Translations under genes and position numbers: made by a program
Notes under the pieces: model-generated
What the model saw: only the letters and a program-made list of their open reading frames with translations
What the model was told of the DNA's origin: nothing
Databases searched by the model: none
Shown: piece after piece, positions 1 through 37,168 of the stretch
How the letters are laid out: each line of letters starts with the position of its first letter
Numbering within the stretch: the first letter of the stretch is position 1
From: a virus
Taxonomy: Duplodnaviria; Caudoviricetes
IMG/VR virus record: IMGVR_UViG_3300036798_000217
Location: 1 to 37,295 of that record
DNA length: 37,295 nt
Direction: 5' to 3' (one strand)

Positions 1-127
1 TGTTATCTTCAATAAGTCCTTTTAAAAACAGAAAGATTTATTATGTAAAAGACCCTAGTCCCCTCTAGGGCTTTTTACATTCAAATAAAAATCCCGTTTA
101 AAACTGCACATATATTAAAAGCATACA
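1..127. repeat. Terminal direct repeat, copy 1 (circular contig overlap)
   Basis: 1-127 is identical to 37169-37295; 127 bp equals a common assembler k-mer. Confidence 0.95.
43..80. terminator. Long hairpin, probably a bidirectional terminator
   Basis: atgtaaaagaccctag-tcccct-ctagggctttttacat. Confidence 0.6.
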
Positions 128-194
128 TACACTAATCATAGTCACCTTTATATATAAATCTTGGTCATAGAGCGCCTTAAAAAGCGCTCTTTTT
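106..194 (+). ncRNA. Candidate small antisense RNA unit with SigK-like promoter
   Basis: GCACA-N15-CATACACTA, short ORF-less body, then agagcgc..gcgctct hairpin plus T-run. Confidence 0.35.
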
Positions 195-216
195 ATGTTT
201 AAATAAGGATTTTGTA

Positions 217-639
217 TTACTTATCTGCTAAAAAACTTTTCGCATCATTAAACAATTGACCCTTTGGAACAAAGTTAAATCCGTACTGATTAAAGAAGTC
301 ATCATTTGACATTTGAAACCACTCTTTTGCTAAATCCCATTTATTATGCCCTTTGAATGTTCCGTACCACTTACGTTGATGTGTTTCATTAATAGTGTTA
401 CTTGATTGAACTGTACTACTCATTTGCATAGGAGATTGCATTCCCATCACTAAACCTGTAACAAATCGTCTCCCAGTTTCATCTACATTTTGAGGTAATT
501 CGCTTTCTATTCCTTTCAAACTTTCAAGTACTTGATCTAATACCTGTGTGTCACCTAAAACTTCACGATTATTTTCTATATGCCAGACGATGTTTCCAAC
601 CTTTTTCTTCAGGATCATGTTTACCATTCCTTTCTCCAA
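217..639 (-). CDS. Hypothetical protein (accessory cassette); start probably near 627
   Basis: 140-aa ORF with GGAGAAAGGA RBS, bounded by 8-6-8 sites at 196-217 and 634-655. Confidence 0.75.
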   Translation of the reverse strand: MEKGMVNMILKKKVGNIVWHIENNREVLGDTQVLDQVLESLKGIESELPQNVDETGRRFVTGLVMGMQSPMQMSSTVQSSNTINETHQRKWYGTFKGHNKWDLAKEWFQMSNDDFFNQYGFNFVPKGQLFNDAKSFLADK

Positions 640-652
640 AATAACTATTTTG

Positions 653-1252
653 TTATAAAGTAACCGCTTCTGCTGCAGGCTTATTTTTTGTTAATTGTTC
701 AATTGCCATTTGTAATCCAACCCAGTAAGCAATTAATCTATATGGCATAACCTGTCCTAAATCGTATAGCCATTCCATATCATCTGTTTCTAAAGATGTA
801 TTTTCGTAAACATCCATTATTCCGCGTTGATATTCTCTGACATTCGCACTCTCTCTTATTACGGATGTGATTTGATTGTAAACATCCTTGCTGTCTTCCA
901 TATTATCCATCTCGTAATCATTCCAGTTTTCTTTTAAATCCCGTCTTGCTGCGTTATTATCAAAATCCCATCGATCATTACAGAATGCCGTTAATTTTTT
1001 TGTGAAGTAATGTAAACCAAAGTCATTGATGTTTTCTAAAGTCGCTAGGCAAGTTAAACTATAGACCGCTTCGCCAATGTCGCCAGAGATAAATACGTTT
1101 GCACCGGATAATACATATTTTGTACGATACATGTTTGTTCCAGGTTTCCCCCACTGAATAACCTGCAAGCCCTCTTCACCTGATATTTCAGCCACATGAT
1201 CCTTAAACCATCTTGTTTTAATTACCTCAATTGCTTTTTCGTTGTAATCCAT
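653..1252 (-). CDS. Phage hypothetical protein
   Basis: 199-aa ORF with AGGGGG RBS; stop codon lies inside the 634-655 site. Confidence 0.8.
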   Translation of the reverse strand: MDYNEKAIEVIKTRWFKDHVAEISGEEGLQVIQWGKPGTNMYRTKYVLSGANVFISGDIGEAVYSLTCLATLENINDFGLHYFTKKLTAFCNDRWDFDNNAARRDLKENWNDYEMDNMEDSKDVYNQITSVIRESANVREYQRGIMDVYENTSLETDDMEWLYDLGQVMPYRLIAYWVGLQMAIEQLTKNKPAAEAVTL

Positions 1253-1297
1253 TTTTCATTTCCCCCTTTTGTATTCAAATAACGCTTTGGTTATAAA

Positions 1298-1471
1298 TTA
1301 CATCAAATTATTTTCATGTCTGTATCGAATTTCTTCGCTTGCAATCTTTGATTTTTCATATGCTTGTTCTCGTATTTCTTTTACATGAAACTTATCCATA
1401 AATTCTTTATTTACTTCACAATACACTTTATCTAACTCCATGTTAGTTAGGTGTTCTAAAGGTCTTTTCAT
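1298..1471 (-). CDS. Small hypothetical protein, 57 aa (MKRPLEHLTN...)
   Basis: Manually translated; GGAGG RBS; not in the ORF track. Confidence 0.7.
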   Translation of the reverse strand: MKRPLEHLTNMELDKVYCEVNKEFMDKFHVKEIREQAYEKSKIASEEIRYRHENNLM

Positions 1472-1486
1472 AAAATAACCTCCTGT

Positions 1487-1663
1487 TTAGTTATGTCTTT
1501 CTGAACGTGGTGTATAAGACAATACTGGCTCAATTCTTCCTGGTGTATAGTCGATATCACCGCTACAATACGGACAACTTTCCGCTTCAAAACGTTCAGC
1601 TAACACTATTTTTCCACAATCTTCATCAGTACACTTAAATTCATACAACACTATTCCTGTCAT
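1487..1663 (-). CDS. Zinc-ribbon small protein, 58 aa
   Basis: Manually translated: MTGIVLYEFKCTDEDCGK...SCPYCSG (CxxxxC...CxxC); AGGGGA RBS. Confidence 0.7.
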   Translation of the reverse strand: MTGIVLYEFKCTDEDCGKIVLAERFEAESCPYCSGDIDYTPGRIEPVLSYTPRSERHN

Positions 1664-1687
1664 TTTTAGTCCCCTTTTCTATAAAAT

Positions 1688-2179
1688 TCAAATTTGGTCT
1701 TGCTTCACATCGACACGTTTTTGACTTGCTTCCCGACTAAATCCATCTGGGTATCTTGTTGCTAATTTAGAAATATTCATTTGAGCTATATCTTCTAATG
1801 TATACCCCATTTCGTGGGCCATAATGGAGATATAGTACATGATGTCCCCCAGCTCTAATGCCAACTTATGAGTATTCCCGTTCTCTTCTCCTGGACAATG
1901 AGCCGGATCAAATCCATGACCATGAAAGATAGCTTTTTTTACGATATCAGCAACCTCACCAGCTTCTCCCGTAAGCCCTAATGCTGCATTTAATACACGT
2001 CCACCGAAATCATTATTTGCATTCCATGTACGTAATGTTGCTTCCTGATATTGATCTAATTCACAAATTTGATTGATATTCATTACAGCTTGTCCTCCCT
2101 TTGATTCACTAACTAATTTAGTTGTTGCATATACACCGTTTTCCATTGCTTTCATTTTGATTTCTCCTCTCTTTAACAA
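1688..2179 (-). CDS. MazG-like nucleoside triphosphate pyrophosphohydrolase
   Basis: LGLTGEAGEVADIVKK...LELGDIMYY...NISKLATRYPDGF motifs; likely start at MKAMENG. Confidence 0.9.
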   Translation of the reverse strand: MLKRGEIKMKAMENGVYATTKLVSESKGGQAVMNINQICELDQYQEATLRTWNANNDFGGRVLNAALGLTGEAGEVADIVKKAIFHGHGFDPAHCPGEENGNTHKLALELGDIMYYISIMAHEMGYTLEDIAQMNISKLATRYPDGFSREASQKRVDVKQDQI

Positions 2180-2424
2180 ATCCCTAATCCTATCGGACGA
2201 TTTTCAATCATATATTTATCAGCTTGGTCTATTACGAGAAGTGCCACCTCTGATTGGTGTCTCCTTAATGCTTTTGCCATTTCTGGTAAACTCATATCTT
2301 GTTTCCACATTTCACGAAACCGTATAATGTCCCTTTCATCCCAAATGAAGTTAGCTTCTTCTAAAGCGATGTATATTTTCAAACGTGATTCCTTCATCGC
2401 TTCATGATTTATTGCTACGCTCAT
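2173..2424 (-). CDS. HTH-like phage protein
   Basis: WDERDIIRFREMW...EMAKALRR segment resembles a helix-turn-helix. Confidence 0.65.
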   Translation of the reverse strand: MSVAINHEAMKESRLKIYIALEEANFIWDERDIIRFREMWKQDMSLPEMAKALRRHQSEVALLVIDQADKYMIENRPIGLGIC

Positions 2425-2449
2425 AAGCGAACCTACCTTCTAAAAATGA

Positions 2450-2617
2450 TTATTTTATCTTTTCAGTAAACTTAGTATCCACGCGATCAACTTTACCGTT
2501 AACCCAAACCGCAACTTGTTCACCAAATCCGCTCACCGGTGGATTAACTGCTATAACATTTCCATCCTTAACTACATAGAGCTTATTGCTAGTAACATCA
2601 ATTTCTATTTTTTTCAT
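2450..2617 (-). CDS. DUF3954/XtrA-like small protein, 55 aa
   Basis: Manually translated MKKIEIDV...YVVKDG...PPVSGFGEQVAVWVNGKV; AGGAG RBS. Confidence 0.7.
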   Translation of the reverse strand: MKKIEIDVTSNKLYVVKDGNVIAVNPPVSGFGEQVAVWVNGKVDRVDTKFTEKIK

Positions 2618-6924: not shown

Positions 6925-6992
6925 ATTATAATAACCATTAAATTCTTCATAAAAATAAAAATTGGTAAAAAATAGGTGTCGATTTTTTACCA
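6925..6992 (-). promoter_or_regulatory. aimX promoter with candidate AimR operator
   Basis: Perfect 11-bp inverted repeat TGGTAAAAAAT-N8-ATTTTTTACCA (6963-6992) upstream of a TATAAT (6930-6925) that has a poor -35. Confidence 0.55.
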
Positions 6993-32291: not shown

Positions 32292-32588
32292 CTAATCACT
32301 CCTAATCAAATCACCATTCTCATCAAACATGACACCCTCAACAACAGGACTATTCTTCTCATGATGTTCACGGTTATGACAGTCCTGACATAATAACTCT
32401 AGGTTACTAAAGCTCAGTGTAATCTCTGGATCATTAATGTTCTCAGGCGTTATGTAATTCTTATGGTGAACTATTTTCCCTGGGTCTTTACATCTTTCAC
32501 ACAACCCATGCCTGAAGTTGAAGTATGACTCTCTGCACTTCTTCCACGCTGTCGACTTGTAGAACTTCTTTGCATATTCCTTTGCCAT
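32292..32588 (-). CDS. Packaging-associated HNH endonuclease (HK97 gp74-like)
   Basis: CERC...VHH...NLELLCQDCHNREH. Confidence 0.9.
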   Translation of the reverse strand: MAKEYAKKFYKSTAWKKCRESYFNFRHGLCERCKDPGKIVHHKNYITPENINDPEITLSFSNLELLCQDCHNREHHEKNSPVVEGVMFDENGDLIRSD

Positions 32589-32616
32589 TCACCCACCTCG
32601 CTATCCGCACTCCTTT

Positions 32617-32889
32617 TTAACAAACTGTCCTTACTCTTATACATCTAGGTTTACGATCTATAACCTGTGACTTCATTAGTTTGTGTTCAACATATCCATA
32701 TACTTTCCGTTGTGGCTGTTCTAACTTATACTCTATATACTTTGCTGTAAGTTCTTTAATCTGTTCCCAGTAATCTGAAACAAACTGAACGATTCTTTTA
32801 TATAATTCATTAGCTAACTTGATAAAGGCTTCTCGAAGTAGTTCAAAATTAACTTTCATACCCTCACTCATTATCATCACTGTCCGCAT
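32617..32889 (-). CDS. Hypothetical protein (true start probably near 32859-32871)
   Basis: ORF track; follows the 43-aa ORF. Confidence 0.65.
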   Translation of the reverse strand: MRTVMIMSEGMKVNFELLREAFIKLANELYKRIVQFVSDYWEQIKELTAKYIEYKLEQPQRKVYGYVEHKLMKSQVIDRKPRCIRVRTVC

Positions 32890-32995
32890 ACAAATCTTCT
32901 TCTTTCATAGGTCTCACTAATATCGGTGTACCAAATGTCCCATCCTCATTACGTACAGCAAAATAGATTTCTTTTGCAACATCTTTAGTCGGCAT
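32864..32995 (-). CDS. Small acidic protein, 43 aa (MPTKDVAKEI...)
   Basis: Manually translated; GGAGGAGG RBS. Confidence 0.65.
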   Translation of the reverse strand: MPTKDVAKEIYFAVRNEDGTFGTPILVRPMKEEDLYADSDDNE

Positions 32996-33014
32996 CCTTC
33001 ATCCTCCTCCAAAA

Positions 33015-33340
33015 TAAAAGGCACCCGAATGGATGCCTTGTTCTCAATTATTATTTTGTACTTTGATTACGGTAAATGAAGTTTTATTCTTCTTTCAGCT
33101 AACAACCACGACAGACGCTCTCGGCTGACTTATCAGGTCACCCTCATTCTGTCTACCTAGGATGTTGTTAGCTCAAAGAAGAGCAAAAGCTCTCCCTCGT
33201 ATACACAACATGAACTTCAATTGGATGTGAAATCAAGAAACAACTGTTCATCCAATCTACAACCATCGCCACCGGTAATGACGATCCATTTTCGATTATC
33301 TGGAATCTTGTGAGCAATGTTTTCCGCCACTACTCACAAT
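33015..33340 (-). ncRNA. Structured leader/ncRNA of the late operon
   Basis: At least five consecutive hairpins, no convincing ORF, ends in a terminator-like hairpin at 33016-33039. Confidence 0.45.
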
Positions 33341-33343
33341 ACA

Positions 33344-33410
33344 AATATAACACGCTATATCCAAAACAACCGGCACATTTCCTGCCAAAAAGCGGTCATG
33401 ACTCTGCCAC
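33344..33410 (-). promoter_or_regulatory. Putative late promoter with activator (ArpU) repeats
   Basis: TGnTATATT at 33352-33344; CTGCCA direct repeats 22 bp apart (33382, 33404). Confidence 0.5.
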
Positions 33411-33449
33411 TTATTTTTATTCTTCACTCTTATGTACTTTATCTTAATG

Positions 33450-33563
33450 ACTTACCCATATCTTATATTGTGTGTAACTGCCCCCTTCGCTGAATCCCTT
33501 GCTATCATTGATTTCATTTAACTTTCTCTTTTGAGTTACACAGTACGAAATTTATGAGTAACT
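33450..33563. repeat. Paired recombinase-type inverted-repeat sites
   Basis: acttaccca-N12-tgtgtaact (33450-33479) and agttacaca-N12-tgagtaact (33534-33563). Confidence 0.6.
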
Positions 33564-33592
33564 GTATAAATTTAAAAAGAAAAAAGCAATGA

Positions 33593-34135
33593 TTAGATTT
33601 TAAACCTAGTCATTGCTTTATCCATCGCATCTTGGTTTACACCTATATAACGTAACGTGACCTTCTCTGACGAGTGATTGAATATCTCCATGAGTAATGC
33701 TATGTTTTTCGTTTGCATGTACATATGGTACCCGTACGTCTTTCTTAGCGTATGTGTTCCGATTTCATCTAAACCAAACTCTGCTGCGGCTATACTTAAT
33801 ATCTTATATGCCATGCTACGACCAATAGGACGATTCTTTCCTTGTCTACTTTGCAACAAATACTCATGATCTTCTCTTTCTTCTATAAACCATTTAAGTT
33901 CTCTTTTTAATGCTGCAGTAATTTGTATTCGTTTCTGTTTCCCTGTTTTCTTTTCCCTCATAGATATATGACTGCTTTTGACATCCCCTACCTTCAATTT
34001 CAAAATATCTGATATTCTAAGACCTGTATTAATACCCATAATGAAGAGAATGTAATTACGTAAGCTCTTTTCCTTAAAATACTCTTTTAGCTGCTGTATT
34101 TCTTCTGGATCACGTATTGGCTGAACAAAATTCAT
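33593..34135 (-). CDS. Minimal tyrosine recombinase (catalytic domain only, 180 aa)
   Basis: NTGLRISD, EKKTGK, HTLRKT, FNHS...TLRYIG. Confidence 0.92.
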   Translation of the reverse strand: MNFVQPIRDPEEIQQLKEYFKEKSLRNYILFIMGINTGLRISDILKLKVGDVKSSHISMREKKTGKQKRIQITAALKRELKWFIEEREDHEYLLQSRQGKNRPIGRSMAYKILSIAAAEFGLDEIGTHTLRKTYGYHMYMQTKNIALLMEIFNHSSEKVTLRYIGVNQDAMDKAMTRFKI

Positions 34136-34617
34136 TATTCATTACCTCCAGTCTTTTCTGTCTCGTAAACTTCTAATCCAAGTGCAAAAGCAAGTTTATA
34201 AAACGCTTTAGACTTCCAACGTCGATAAGTACGCTCTGACATTCCTATTTCGTTATAAACCATGTAATCACATACATCCTCTTCTTCTAAATAACGTTTA
34301 TAAATAATATCTCTTTGGTTACTTCCTGCACGTCCGTTTCCTAGTCGATTTAGAAACTGATCAATACGTAATGACATTCCTTCAAGCCATTCTTCTCGTT
34401 TACTTTGTTGAATATTTGCTATGGCAACATCTTCTAATGGCTTTCCAACTGCATGTGTAGGACCGTGCTCACGCATTTCATAAGAAGGAGTGACTTTCAT
34501 TTCTTTACGCATCATCCCAAATTGCCTATGTATACGTACACTTTCCAAAACACCTTCTAATTCCTCTTGTGTTGCTGCTCTATCGATTTTTGGTAAGAAA
34601 GATAATTGTTTAGTCAT
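34135..34617 (-). CDS. ArpU-family late transcriptional activator
   Basis: KVTPSYE...IIYKRYL...SERTYRRWKSKAFYKLA. Confidence 0.85.
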   Translation of the reverse strand: MTKQLSFLPKIDRAATQEELEGVLESVRIHRQFGMMRKEMKVTPSYEMREHGPTHAVGKPLEDVAIANIQQSKREEWLEGMSLRIDQFLNRLGNGRAGSNQRDIIYKRYLEEEDVCDYMVYNEIGMSERTYRRWKSKAFYKLAFALGLEVYETEKTGGNE

Positions 34618-34644
34618 GTAAGACCACTCCTTTTTATTTTTAAA

Positions 34645-34815
34645 TTACTTTTGTCTTAATGCTCCACGTCTACGCTCATAACGCGGTCCACGAATCCCCA
34701 TTAAGTCTTCAATATCACGAGTACTTAATTTCTCTTTTCGCTTTTTCTTGTTTTTCTTTTTCACTTGATTAGATTGCTTTTTCCATTCACGTAATTGATC
34801 TCTTAGCACCTTCAT
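34645..34815 (-). CDS. Basic small protein, 56 aa (MKVLRDQLREWKK...)
   Basis: Manually translated; LSTRDIEDLMG..GPRYERRRGALRQ. Confidence 0.7.
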   Translation of the reverse strand: MKVLRDQLREWKKQSNQVKKKNKKKRKEKLSTRDIEDLMGIRGPRYERRRGALRQK

Positions 34816-34930
34816 TTCCCCATCTCCCTTTTCAAAATAAAAAGGACACCTATTCCTAAAACAGCTGTAATTACTGCTTTAATGAATTGGTGTCCTCTAG
34901 TTTTCTAGCCGGACTATATTCAGTTTCTTT

Positions 34931-35053
34931 TCACTTTAAAATGCCAGCTTGTACAAAAATGTTTCTCCAAGCATTTTTAACTCTATATTTTTCAAAAGAT
35001 TTCGCACGTCGAGCAATAGCTTTTCTGGTTTTCTTTTTCTTTAATTTAGACAT
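34931..35053 (-). CDS. DUF3983-like small protein, 40 aa
   Basis: Manually translated KKKKTRKAIARRAK...AWRNIFVQAGILK. Confidence 0.7.
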   Translation of the reverse strand: MSKLKKKKTRKAIARRAKSFEKYRVKNAWRNIFVQAGILK

Positions 35054-35245: not shown

Positions 35246-35274
35246 TCTCTTAACCTCACTTTCTATTCAAAGGA

Positions 35275-35643
35275 TTATTTTGTTACAAAAAGTACTTCTT
35301 TTAACTTCCGTAATTCGATAAGTGACATCTTATCCACCGTATCCTTTAATTCTTTTCTTAATTGAGTCTTTTCTTTACCACGTTCAACCATTCCCCAATA
35401 CTCATTTTCTGTAATATACGCTTTGTAATTTTCTCCCCATCCCGTTCTATACATAAAATCTTTTTGGCTAAATCTTCTAGGTCTCCAATCAGAGTCTTCT
35501 GGCATAGCATAAAAGCTTGTGCCATTCGCTTTAACTACGATCCACTTCTTCAAGTTAGGTTCTGACTTTGAATACCAGCCACCTAAATGTGTAACGAATA
35601 TTTCTTGTCCTTCTACTATTTTGATTTTGGCCATTCCTCTCAT
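35275..35643 (-). CDS. Hypothetical protein
   Basis: 122-aa ORF with AGGAGG RBS; stop inside the 35264-35285 site. Confidence 0.75.
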   Translation of the reverse strand: MRGMAKIKIVEGQEIFVTHLGGWYSKSEPNLKKWIVVKANGTSFYAMPEDSDWRPRRFSQKDFMYRTGWGENYKAYITENEYWGMVERGKEKTQLRKELKDTVDKMSLIELRKLKEVLFVTK

Positions 35644-35649
35644 TCCTCC

Positions 35650-35747
35650 TGAATAAAACTCAATATTCCGTCAATACTGTAGATACAGTTTCTGATTTTC
35701 CTTCATACCCGAAGGCTTAGCAGTTAGCTTTTGCTAGCTGCTCTTTT
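35650..35747 (+). ncRNA. Antisense sRNA unit 1 (SigG/SigE-like promoter plus shared terminator)
   Basis: TGAATA-N17-AATACTG; agcagttagc-tttt-gctagctgct-ctttt. Confidence 0.55.
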
Positions 35748-35979
35748 ATCGTTTTGGATGGCCACACGCTTCTGCATAATCCCAATATCCTTTACATTCA
35801 GTTGAATTAGGTGTCATTTTGAAGTCTGCTAAGCTTTCTGATACACATTCCTTCGATTTATTACGATTAGGAAAATACATATTCCAATAACACTCAGTGC
35901 AACAACAGGTTAATTCTTGATCACCCTGCACTTGAGCCACTTTTGTAAATAACGCTTCAAATTCATCCATCATATCCAT
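35746..35979 (-). CDS. Cys-rich small protein
   Basis: CCCTECYWN..C..C..C; AAGGAGG RBS. Confidence 0.7.
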   Translation of the reverse strand: MDMMDEFEALFTKVAQVQGDQELTCCCTECYWNMYFPNRNKSKECVSESLADFKMTPNSTECKGYWDYAEACGHPKR

Positions 35980-35986
35980 TCCTCCT

Positions 35987-36092
35987 TGAATAAATTCCTA
36001 AATCTTGTCCATACTATAAATACACTTAATGATTGAACTTCCTTCTTAACTTTTCGTTTGAGAGCAGTTAGCTTTTGCTAGCTGCTCTTTTT
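35987..36092 (+). ncRNA. Antisense sRNA unit 2
   Basis: TGAATA-N17-CATACTA (SigG consensus); same terminator hairpin. Confidence 0.6.
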
Positions 36093-36100
36093 ATGTTTTG

Positions 36101-36217
36101 TGAATAAAATTCTAAACATTGCCTAACACTGTAGATAAGGCTTTAAAAAGTCGATTTCTCCCACTCTAGCTCTCTTGGTCGAGAGTCGAGCAGTTAGCTT
36201 TTGCTAGCTGCTTTTTT
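36101..36217 (+). ncRNA. Antisense sRNA unit 3
   Basis: TGAATA-N18-AACACTG; same terminator hairpin. Confidence 0.55.
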
Positions 36218-36551
36218 ATTTTAAATCCGGTTCATATTTATGTTTCTTCTGTATAAAGATCTCATGAACCAATTTCACGCAAAAATCTACGACATCCTCA
36301 TCACTTGTAATATTCGCACCAATGTTAGCATTCTGAAATTCTTTTATATCCTGTATCATTTTTGTATTAGGTATCTGCTTTTCTAACATTTTTCGAATCA
36401 CTTTAGATTGGCTCTCTCCATCGTATTCACATAGAAACTCAATCTCACTCCATAACTCAGTCGGTAAAGTTAACGATACTTTTCTTGTCTCACCAATTGC
36501 TTTACGCCCTGCTCCTTCTCTTTTCCCACCACGATTGTTTTGTTCAGTCAT
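36216..36551 (-). CDS. Ribbon-helix-helix-like DNA-binding protein
   Basis: RGGKREGAGRK plus RKVSLTLP..LW..I...SQSKVIRKML. Confidence 0.75.
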   Translation of the reverse strand: MTEQNNRGGKREGAGRKAIGETRKVSLTLPTELWSEIEFLCEYDGESQSKVIRKMLEKQIPNTKMIQDIKEFQNANIGANITSDEDVVDFCVKLVHEIFIQKKHKYEPDLK

Positions 36552-36565
36552 TATATATCTCTCCT

Positions 36566-36616
36566 TTGAATAAAGTTACTTTATTCAATTGTATTCTTCG
36601 TGGTAAACATTATCAA
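36566..36616 (-). promoter_or_regulatory. SigA promoter with operator palindrome at +1
   Basis: TTGATA-N17-TACAAT (36616-36588); TTGAATAAAG-N3-CTTTATTCAA (36566-36588). Confidence 0.7.
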
Positions 36617-36726
36617 TTGATTTTAGTAACTTCATTCAAAAAAAGATTTCTACAAAATGAAATTTTTATTAAAAACCGAACATTTCCCTTAAACTACAGC
36701 TGCAAACTTAAATCAAATTCCGAACA

Positions 36727-36843
36727 TTAATACTCATAACTAATATTATTTGCTTCCATCCAGTTTTCTCGTTCTGCTTGTACGATCATTTCTTGCTCCG
36801 CTTCAATTTCTAAACGCTCTTGCTCATTCCAAGTGTCTTTCAT
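36727..36843 (-). CDS. Acidic small protein, 38 aa (MKDTWNEQERLEIEAEQEMIVQAERENWMEANNISYEY)
   Basis: Manually translated; AAGGAG RBS. Confidence 0.65.
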   Translation of the reverse strand: MKDTWNEQERLEIEAEQEMIVQAERENWMEANNISYEY

Positions 36844-36879
36844 TTCATATTCTCCTTTTCTAACAAAATAGCGTTTTTA

Positions 36880-37101
36880 TTAAGCTTTATTTAGCTTATT
36901 TAAATTAATTGCTGATTCCATCCAAAAACTGCAGATGAATTCTACAGATACATTTTCGACTTGTTCTTCTGTATATTCATAAAAATCCACCGCTACATTT
37001 TTAGCGAATCTCTCTGCATATTCATCTTCTTTTCTAGAAACAGAAACTATAAAGCTCATGTGCTCGTTATATACATGGTATTGATAAATCGTGTTAGGCA
37101 T
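36880..37101 (-). CDS. Hypothetical protein (start MPNTIYQ)
   Basis: AAGGGAG RBS; stop at the end of the 36861-36882 site. Confidence 0.7.
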   Translation of the reverse strand: MPNTIYQYHVYNEHMSFIVSVSRKEDEYAERFAKNVAVDFYEYTEEQVENVSVEFICSFWMESAINLNKLNKA

Positions 37102-37168
37102 TTTATTCTCCCTTTCTCTCAAATAACGATTTTGTTCACTTTTTCGATACATTTATGAAACATTCATG

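What the first reader, a model, noticed from the sequence alone, without database searches (positions are those of the whole stretch)
196..2460. Cassette-array architecture, left part: 8-6-8 sites at gene boundaries of the early accessory region
Seen: five same-orientation 22-bp sites: tgtttaaa-taagga-ttttgtat (196), ctccaaaa-taacta-ttttgtta (634), tattcaaa-taacgc-tttggtta (1272), ctataaaa-ttcaaa-tttggtct (1679), tctaaaaa-tgatta-ttttatct (2439). Four more lie across the contig join (see 35264-37137). Each overlaps or abuts the stop codon of the upstream minus-strand gene, and most sit just before the next RBS. Nine sites cut ~4.4 kb into eight 1-3 gene units. Known: inverted arms around a 6-bp asymmetric spacer are the geometry of tyrosine recombinase core sites. 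Inference: an integron-like gene-shuffling array in a phage. Alternatives are regulator operators or RNA-processing signals. The motif is AT-rich, so its position matters more than its sequence.
Basis: partly seen in the sequence, partly recalled or inferred. Interest (0 to 1): 0.85.

Follow-up and report, generated by a model that had tools for sequence, protein, structure and literature searches.

The report
Position-barcoded crossover sites in Bacillus phages
Nine look-alike DNA sites between the small accessory genes of this Bacillus phage each carry their own six-letter centre, in an order kept across more than a hundred related phages whose genes between the sites differ, so the sites likely let a recombinase, probably one lent by other phages, swap genes slot for slot.

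Summary
The nine sites are real (AAYAAAA-N6-TTTKR; 1.27 per kb in 119 related arrays, 0.006 per kb elsewhere). It is not an integron. Each site has its own 6-bp spacer, and about twelve spacers keep one order (3170 of 3272 pairs) while the cargo varies (422 protein families). The left arm follows the upstream neighbour, the right arm follows the downstream one, and the spacer follows both. 71 of 100 ends of near-identical shared segments lie at sites. Both ends of the published gamma-phage fosfomycin island lie at two such sites. The adjacent 180-aa recombinase is probably not the enzyme: four site-bearing phages encode no tyrosine recombinase, and 45 phi105-like loci have it without arrays. 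The best candidate is a YomM-like 322-aa recombinase, absent here but present in at least 12 of 80 relatives; 49 of 64 of its upstream regions hold such a site. Best reading: spacer-matched, in-register exchange between phage genomes. The enzyme is inferred, not shown. This scan noted the same system earlier on other DNA (e1-8179752, e1-5343663, e1-6277642; SPbeta-like phages). Ten literature searches found no description.

The parts
2439..2460 (-). Site 1, spacer TAATCA (transcript strand); holds the stop codon of the DUF3954 gene; weakest site
1679..1700 (-). Site 2, spacer TTTGAA; holds the stop codon of the MazG-like gene
   Evidence: 96 of 1009 sites carry this spacer
1272..1293 (-). Site 3, spacer GCGTTA
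634..655 (-). Site 4, spacer TAGTTA
196..217 (-). Site 5, spacer TCCTTA
37116..37137 (-). Site 6, spacer TCGTTA (across the join)
36861..36882 (-). Site 7, spacer ACGCTA
36650..36671 (-). Site 8, spacer ATTTCA
35264..35285 (-). Site 9, spacer TAATCC; last site of the array
11715..11736 (-). Tenth site outside the array, just after the endolysin stop; spacer GAATAG, shared with Wbeta and BtCS33; behaves as a crossover point in relatives
2450..2617 (-). DUF3954 gene, conserved upstream anchor of the array
1688..2424 (-). Unit TAATCA-TTTGAA: 83-aa gene and MazG-like pyrophosphatase
1298..1663 (-). Unit TTTGAA-GCGTTA: 58-aa and 57-aa genes of unknown function
653..1252 (-). Unit GCGTTA-TAGTTA: 199-aa gene (phrog_5051); in relatives the family sits in this same slot in 6 of 7 cases
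   Evidence: family represented by L009:2429-3031, 200 aa, matched by length and slot only
217..639 (-). Unit TAGTTA-TCCTTA: ORF of up to 140 aa (phrog_22662)
1..195 (.). Part of the non-coding unit TCCTTA-TCGTTA (continues at 37138-37168); terminator-like hairpins
36880..37107 (-). Unit TCGTTA-ACGCTA: 75-aa gene (phrog_31095)
36727..36843 (-). Unit ACGCTA-ATTTCA: 38-aa ORF
35275..36551 (-). Unit ATTTCA-TAATCC: 111-, 77- and 122-aa genes plus a second repeat family
33593..34617 (-). ArpU late regulator (34135-34617) and intact 180-aa catalytic-domain tyrosine recombinase (33593-34135); downstream anchor, probably not the array enzyme
33534..33563 (.). Separate 12-6-12 dyad just downstream of the 180-aa recombinase, unlike the array sites; its likely own target
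   Evidence: a looser pattern for it found within 400 nt downstream in 49 of 119 loci
13021..13057 (-). Empty junction between the tail gene and the lysis genes; relatives carry the YomM-like 322-aa recombinase and its TACGGC site here

Best explanation
The sites are crossover points whose 6-bp centres act as fixed addresses, and a tyrosine recombinase, likely the YomM-like enzyme carried by a minority of related phages and absent here, likely recombines two phage genomes only where both have the same centre, so two crossovers would swap the genes between matching sites in register. Shown: the sites exist; spacers are ordered and slot-specific; the arms follow their own neighbours; exchange ends lie at the sites; genera that share no recombination gene share the addresses; the YomM-like gene has its own site. 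Inferred: (i) a dimeric protein binds the roughly 11-6-11 dyad; (ii) strand exchange needs matching spacers, and one-base mismatches are sometimes tolerated, giving skips, duplications and hybrid spacers; (iii) partners are an infecting or induced phage and a resident prophage, joined and resolved at two different addresses; (iv) unique spacers within a genome prevent self-deletion; (v) the enzyme works in trans and, lying between tail and holin genes, would be made late in lytic growth, which would spare chromosomes carrying several prophages with the same addresses. My odds: in-register crossover points 0.9; tyrosine-recombinase chemistry 0.7; YomM-like family as the enzyme 0.5.
For:: in 547 pairs sharing only the upstream neighbour and 505 sharing only the downstream one, the variable left-arm positions (1, 2, 4) follow upstream (identity 0.91-0.97 vs 0.38-0.72 in downstream-sharing pairs). 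Positions 18-22 follow downstream (0.83-0.92 vs 0.35-0.60). Spacer positions 9-14 follow both (0.69-0.99 and 0.78-0.99; background 0.32-0.79); 3170 of 3272 pairs in order, 96% in split-half cross-validation; same-spacer sites with unrelated neighbours are barely more alike in the arms; identical spacers within an array 59 vs 264 +/- 15; 71 of 100 ends of >=99%-identical segments at sites (6.6% of bases) vs 15 at site-less gene ends (10.2% of bases); neighbour switching 0.88 vs 0.52; 6 of 1009 sites deep inside ORFs; 12 of 38 replacements have both ends at same-spacer sites, e.g. L022 vs L033 differ in three slots with 100% identical DNA between; gamma and Wbeta are identical over the compared flanks, and the 1,361-bp island runs from the TTTGAA site to the TAGTTA site; same addresses in Wbeta, Negev_SA, Booya and phBC6A51, which have no PF00589 gene; roughly 11-6-11 dyad. 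YomM-like 322-aa recombinase with R167, K194, H265 and Y300 invariant in 7 aligned; 49 of 64 distinct upstream regions hold a site at -75 to -84 vs 0 of 64 shuffles; sites enriched in YomM-family carriers SPbeta (28 vs 2.3), Tsamsa (19 vs 2.0) and weakly Enterococcus 9183 (7 vs 2.7); 0-1 in 5 of 5 control phages.
Against: No recombination, binding or cleavage was shown. Because positions 5-8 and 15-17 are invariant, a crossover anywhere in a 13-bp matching core gives the same pattern, so microhomology recombination is not excluded. 16 of 38 replacements have neither end at a site and 10 have one. At 85-92% identity, ends fall about as often at site-less gene ends (2363 of 6849) as at sites (2607). 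The Fah deletion (Wbeta 32323-35025) does not end at sites. 40 of 107 arrays break strict order, and only 51% and 69% of neighbour-sharing pairs have fully identical spacers. Two of five YomM-family carriers (Ldl1, Lactococcus 949) show no enrichment. The candidate enzyme is in only 7 of 104 host-family genomes. For the window's own array, 40 of 95 homology ends but only 12 of 184 starts lie at its sites (starts in the conserved tail were not separated out). Pairs are not independent events, and the arrays were collected through two anchor genes.
Confidence: 0.6

Rival explanations
1. Same addressed joints, but the enzyme is host XerC/XerD (CodV/RipX) or the ArpU-linked 180-aa recombinase acting in trans.
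For: XerC and XerD are in 5 of 5 host genomes. The left arm read outward matches the inner XerD arm of the host dif at 7 of 8 positions, with 11-6-11 geometry. The 180-aa gene is intact and lies downstream in 77 of 80 DUF3954 loci; two of the other three are cut by the contig end.
Against: Both arms differ from dif at the third base from the spacer almost without exception (dif base at 0-2%). The 180-aa enzyme has its own different dyad, occurs without arrays in 45 phi105-like loci and phi3626, and two clades (103 arrays at >=80%, 16 at <60% identity) use the same spacers. Host paralogues of 176 and 188 aa have the catalytic Arg replaced by Lys.
Confidence: 0.15
2. The sites are conserved short linkers used by homologous or microhomology recombination; no site-specific enzyme is involved and the order reflects descent.
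For: A matched core of 13 bp explains the inheritance pattern equally well. Phage-prophage exchange by relaxed homologous recombination is documented for lambda (PMC3945230, passages). Many older breakpoints are not at sites.
Against: It does not explain why all slots, and phages of other genera, share one symmetric arm sequence, which should favour deletions; why slot identity is confined to 6 bp; or why a recombinase gene carries the same site. No annealing protein was among the 35 window proteins scanned.
Confidence: 0.15
3. Integron-like array: units excise as circles and reinsert, shuffling order.
For: 21 adjacent same-spacer pairs exist among 893 units. Out-of-order spacers occur (102 of 3272 pairs). 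One low-support contig joint runs from site 36650 to site 37116, middle not known.
Against: Flanking spacers differ, identical spacers are depleted, order is fixed, gene families keep their slot (mean 72% in the modal slot over 54 families), the arms do not covary and do not fold stably, and there is no integrase in cis.
Confidence: 0.04
4. Regulator operators or RNA processing and termination signals.
For: The sites are intergenic, strand-oriented and often 15-18 nt before a start codon (390 of 1009 within 60 nt). A recombinase-fold repressor exists in SPbeta (PMC10516654, passages).
Against: An operator would not have slot-specific centres or arms inherited from different neighbours. There is no stem covariation. 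The motif shared by the ten MrpR-bound promoters is a different sequence.
Confidence: 0.04

Closest known systems
pdif sites and dif modules of Acinetobacter plasmids, XerC/XerD (PMC13141974, 12 passages seen; PMC6449649, abstract and Discussion)
   Same: Many 11-6-11 sites flank accessory modules; recombination needs identical or near-identical 6-bp spacers; the enzyme acts in trans; single-module exchange by cointegrate formation and resolution is a proposed route.
   Different: Here the sites are in phages, all in direct orientation (pdif sites alternate), the arms are not XerC/XerD boxes, and the spacers form a conserved ordered address series shared across genera.
Integrons (IntI, attI, attC); features recalled, not read here
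   Same: Arrays of small units of zero to three genes bounded by oriented sites, often with the stop codon in the site.
   Different: No hairpin attC, no attI, no integrase in cis, no order shuffling; units are replaced between addresses.
PeSL cassettes of T4-type phages (PMC2839356, abstract and outline only)
   Same: Repeats in phage accessory regions at which modules are exchanged.
   Different: PeSLs are promoter plus terminator elements that yield mini-circles; these sites are 22-28-bp dyads with unique centres and no promoter enrichment.
Heterospecific lox/FRT sites in recombinase-mediated cassette exchange (recalled)
   Same: Non-cross-reacting spacers allow replacement without deletion.
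   Different: That is an engineered two-site tool; here a natural series of about twelve addresses, plus two or more in the lysis region.
SPBRE/MrpR operator of SPbeta (PMC10516654, 12 passages; supplement not readable)
   Same: A repeated intergenic element in a Bacillus temperate phage bound by a tyrosine-recombinase-fold protein.
   Different: Different sequence, promoter location, repressor function.

Membership tests
Integron | IntI integrase next to the array | tested here: not met
   The 180-aa protein scores 32.7 bits vs cut-off 265 for TIGR02249; four site-bearing phages have no PF00589 gene.
Integron | attC-type single-strand hairpin formed by each site's own arms | tested here: not met
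   No arm covariation (273 paired vs 274.4 expected at positions 4/19, n=707); window sites fold at 0 to -3.3 kcal/mol. Rfam: 0 matches in the window.
Integron | Cassettes excise, reinsert and change order | tested here: not met
   3170 of 3272 pairs in fixed order; circles themselves not testable with contigs.
pdif/dif modules | 11-6-11 geometry | tested here: met
   Extended logo from 916 distinct sites.
pdif/dif modules | Partners share the 6-bp spacer | tested here: met
   fully identical in 51% and 69% of neighbour-sharing pairs vs 8% between arrays.
pdif/dif modules | XerC and XerD binding boxes | tested here: not met
   Against the host dif (identified by a recalled pattern, one copy per chromosome in 5 of 5), the third base of both arms differs in about 98-100% of sites.
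pdif/dif modules | Alternating inverted orientation | tested here: not met
   810 hits on one strand vs 26 on the other; no reverse-complement spacer among the 12 common ones.
pdif/dif modules | XerC/XerD dependence | not testable with these tools
   Needs mutants.
PeSL cassettes | Repeat is a strong promoter plus terminator stem-loop | tested here: not met
   4 promoter-like hits in 1-2700 vs 11.3 expected; terminators only in the non-coding unit.
Tyrosine-recombinase site (general) | Cleavage with a 6-nt stagger by a tyrosine recombinase | not testable with these tools
   Geometry and inheritance fit; enzyme inferred.
SPBRE/MrpR operator | SPBRE sequence in promoters | tested here: not met
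   The motif shared by 10 of 10 MrpR-bound regions differs.

The most novel reading that the evidence does not exclude
Firmicute temperate phages of several genera share a dedicated gene-exchange system. A YomM-family tyrosine recombinase, carried by a minority of phages as a public good, recombines different phage genomes at address-coded sites, so that unrelated phages draw on one slot-indexed library of accessory genes. The gamma-phage fosfomycin island would be a recorded product of it.
Probability: 0.45. Interest if true: 0.93.

Novelty: new variant of a known kind. Interest (0 to 1): 0.82.

Why it matters
How phage genomes become mosaic while keeping gene order is a standing question: limited homology versus illegitimate recombination plus selection (PMC3945230, passage). 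This offers a third, site-specific route with exact predictions: named sites, named spacers, and a named candidate enzyme with a homologue in the model phage SPbeta. It explains how moron-like cargo (MazG, dUTPase, BclA-like collagen, methylase, Mrr, GNAT) moves between Wbeta-like, phBC6A51-like and lambdoid B. cereus-group phages. It also places the classic gamma-phage island between two defined sites. If the enzyme is confirmed, it is a natural recombinase with a dozen or more orthogonal spacers, useful for multi-slot cassette exchange.

Tried and rejected
Matrix from the five window sites alone: weak. 180-aa recombinase as the cis enzyme: rejected. Main Int: no tyrosine integrase in four site-bearing phages. 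Host 176- and 188-aa paralogues: the 176-aa one is conserved (80 of 105 genomes), but both have Arg-to-Lys at the first catalytic position and no site array near them. A phage gene shared by the window, Wbeta and phBC6A51: only repressor-type HTH and tail proteins. RNA or single-strand hairpin: rejected. Identity with SPBRE: rejected. Laboratory phi3T/SPbeta hybrids (2 genomes): the large switches fall in identical blocks of 1.4-13 kb that contain sites, so they are uninformative; the small switches (<=291 bp) contain none and may be strain differences. Exact-palindrome de novo scan: finds SPbeta, Tsamsa and 9183 but misses the window and Wbeta, so it is insensitive. Public runs: contigs only, no RNA holder listed. 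Joints 215>639 and about 1293>1681 have unknown middles and short sides (21-30 nt), and one joint, 2518>2798, is not at sites; no circle could be shown or excluded. Donor of the gamma island: not found in the phage collection or in my loci. Literature: searches gave nothing describing these sites. The library lacks most subscription papers, including the original gamma/Wbeta genome papers, which I saw only through a review.
Full report
Setting. The window is a complete circular temperate siphophage of the Bacillus cereus group: 37,168 bp plus a 127-bp terminal repeat, with best DNA matches in B. cereus-group phages. The array lies on the early transcript between a DUF3954 gene (2450-2617) and the DUF3983, ArpU and 180-aa recombinase genes (33593-35053), across the contig join. 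The host species was not determined.

Observation. All nine sites are present. I fetched 160 IMG/VR loci with two anchors and one GenBank phage. With the window, 140 had both anchors and 119 remained after removing near-duplicates. A matrix re-trained on the 118 others gives AAYAAAA-N6-TTTKR on the transcript strand. At >=13 bits it finds 810 hits in 638 kb of arrays, 4 in 673 kb upstream, 5 in 773 kb downstream, 26 on the other strand and 4 after shuffling. Seven window sites score 19-26 bits and nothing else exceeds 8.1; 1679 scores well on arms alone; 2439 is weak. Seven of nine touch a stop codon; 36650 and 37116 do not. Across arrays, 420 of 1009 sites had a called stop within 30 nt (a simple caller that under-calls) and only 6 lay deep inside ORFs. 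Weak symmetry extends to about 11-6-11.

The spacers are addresses. Ten spacers make up 753 of 875 sites in the first site set; adding TAATCA and TTTGAA gives the order TAATCA, TTTGAA, GCGTTA, TAGTTA, TTCTTA, TCCTTA, TCTTTA, TCGTTA, ACGCTA, ACTTCA, ATTTCA, TAATCC. 3170 of 3272 within-array pairs follow it (96% when learned on half the arrays and tested on the rest), and 67 of 107 arrays follow it strictly. The window uses nine of the twelve, in order. Identical spacers in one array are depleted (59 vs 264 +/- 15). Cargo is very diverse: 1138 called genes in 422 families, 268 of them singletons, and families of four or more members keep their slot (mean 72%). Named cargo among 62 proteins scanned includes MazG, dUTPase, YopX, BclA-like collagen, sulfotransferase, cupin, C5 methylase, Mrr, GNAT and MarR. 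I reached this reading, before consulting earlier scan notes (onward).

The sites are crossover points. In pairs sharing only the upstream neighbour (547) or only the downstream neighbour (505), the left arm follows upstream, the right arm follows downstream, and only positions 9-14 follow both. Same-spacer sites with unrelated neighbours are barely more alike in their arms. Ends of shared segments fall at sites more often the more recent the sharing: 2607 of 6849 at 85-92% identity, 1183 of 2647, 405 of 807, and 71 of 100 at >=99%, against 6.6% of bases. Site-less gene ends (10.2% of bases) take 2363, 865, 159 and 15. Of 38 replacements between >=97%-identical flanks, 12 have both ends at same-spacer sites, 10 have one and 16 have none. 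These pairs are not independent events. The arms do not covary, so there is no hairpin.

Across genera and a historical case. Wbeta, Negev_SA, gamma, Cherry, Fah and Booya (Wbetavirus) and phBC6A51 carry the same sites. Negev_SA has ten addresses, three with one-base changes, in the canonical order; phBC6A51 and Wbeta deviate in part. Gamma and Wbeta are 100% identical over the flanks compared (280 and 4,733 bp). A 1,361-bp segment replaces 2,823 bp; identity ends 5 nt past the TTTGAA site and resumes at position 5 of the TAGTTA site. A review gives these sizes for the fosfomycin-resistance island gained by gamma from its parent Wbeta (PMC4113786, five passages). Against: the Fah deletion does not end at sites. 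SPbeta has 31 exact TAAAA-N6-TTTTA words in 99 kb against about 1.6 expected, each with a different centre; they are not the MrpR operator.

The enzyme. Negev_SA, Wbeta, Booya and phBC6A51 have no PF00589 gene. 45 phi105-like loci and phi3626 have the 180-aa gene and only chance-level arm hits. Two clades of it share one spacer set, and it has its own different dyad at 33534-33563 (lead from e1-5343669). Host XerC/D fit the geometry but not the third arm base. The host 176- and 188-aa paralogues look catalytically degenerate. Following notes on SPbeta-like phages, I searched with SPbeta YomM and found a 322-aa full-length tyrosine recombinase (BtCS33 gp15 type, 27-29% identical) between the tail and holin genes of B. 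cereus-group siphophages. It is in 100 IMG/VR stretches, in at least 12 of my 80 DUF3954 contigs (a floor) and in 7 of 104 host-family genomes, and it is absent from the window. In 49 of 64 distinct upstream regions the best arm match scores >=8 bits, nearly all at -74 to -84 and mostly with spacer TACGGC, against 0 of 64 shuffles. That site, and a GAATAG site after the endolysin (window 11715-11736), show the same arm-neighbour pattern. Among five YomM-family carriers, SPbeta (28 vs 2.3), Tsamsa (19 vs 2.0) and weakly 9183 (7 vs 2.7) are enriched; Ldl1 (1 vs 1.3) and 949 (4 vs 2.7) are not. SPP1, A118, B4, phi11 and phi105 have 0-1; of these, only PF00589 content was checked. This is association, not proof.

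Mechanism. Most likely (0.6 for the whole statement) a recombinase dimer binds each site and exchanges strands between two phage genomes where spacers match; a second crossover at another address, or by homology elsewhere, completes an in-register swap. Unique spacers block self-deletion. Occasional one-base tolerance would give the skips, the 21 adjacent duplicates among 893 units and variant spacers. One host chromosome carries three clusters of same-orientation addresses, so activity must be limited; the candidate gene's place in the late region would do that (inference). The data cannot separate a 6-bp overlap from a 13-bp microhomology (0.15), or this enzyme from host Xer or the 180-aa protein in trans (0.15). 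Integron-like excision (0.04) and operators (0.04) fit poorly.

Comparison and novelty. It works like Acinetobacter pdif modules, where spacer identity picks partners (PMC13141974), but fails their XerC/D-box and alternating-orientation tests. It also fails the integron and PeSL tests. Ten searches found no description; subscription papers and one supplement were not visible. Earlier notes of this scan report the same system on other DNA; they are leads, not support. What is added and tested here is the gamma island mapping, the recombinase-free genera, the extra lysis-region addresses and the YomM-like candidate with its own site. Verdict: real, a new variant of spacer-addressed site-specific exchange, enzyme unproven; interest 0.82.

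Noticed in passing
window 35645-35749, 35984-36092, 36100-36222: A second repeat family inside the last unit: three copies of an AT-rich promoter-like stretch followed by the same terminator-like hairpin. Many contig joints and loose ends in soil runs fall at its edges, so it may be a second, PeSL-like exchange point.
   Followed up: partly
window 37138-37168 and 1-195: Non-coding 227-bp unit with terminator-like hairpins, partly shared with Wbetavirus phages; no Rfam match. Possibly an sRNA cassette.
   Followed up: partly
window 33534-33563: Xer-like 12-6-12 dyad downstream of the 180-aa recombinase; a looser pattern finds it in 49 of 119 loci.
   Followed up: partly
window 9928-9949, 14919-14940, 6947-6968: Further arm-like matches (11.5-13.5 bits) near the integrase, inside the tail gene and in the lysogeny region; not tested as crossover points.
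   Followed up: no
L163:15802 and L368:2711: An arm match with spacer TGTCTC inside the large tail gene of Negev_SA and Waukesha92; could mark a domain-swap point. Too few cases to test.
   Followed up: partly
L183:3520-4050 and L184:3214-3780: Two chromosomal small tyrosine-recombinase-like genes with Arg-to-Lys at the first catalytic position; the 176-aa one is in 80 of 105 family genomes, mostly at 91-100% identity. Possibly repurposed regulators.
   Followed up: partly
window 34840-34930: Long hairpin-like stretch between DUF3983 and the 56-aa gene before ArpU; no Rfam match.
   Followed up: no
window 7227-8462: AimR-like arbitrium receptor (PF22871).
   Followed up: no
L470-L473 (Lactobacillus phage Ldl1): Different enriched gapped palindromes, TGCA-N9-TGCA (13 vs 1.0) and CATG-N9-CATG (10 vs 0.6).
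   Followed up: no
L514-L520 vs SPbeta: Several long identical blocks shared by phi3T and SPbeta begin or end at TAAAA-N6-TTTTA sites.
   Followed up: partly
L055, L065, L050, L042: A few loci with the 180-aa recombinase have no or only one or two array sites.
   Followed up: no
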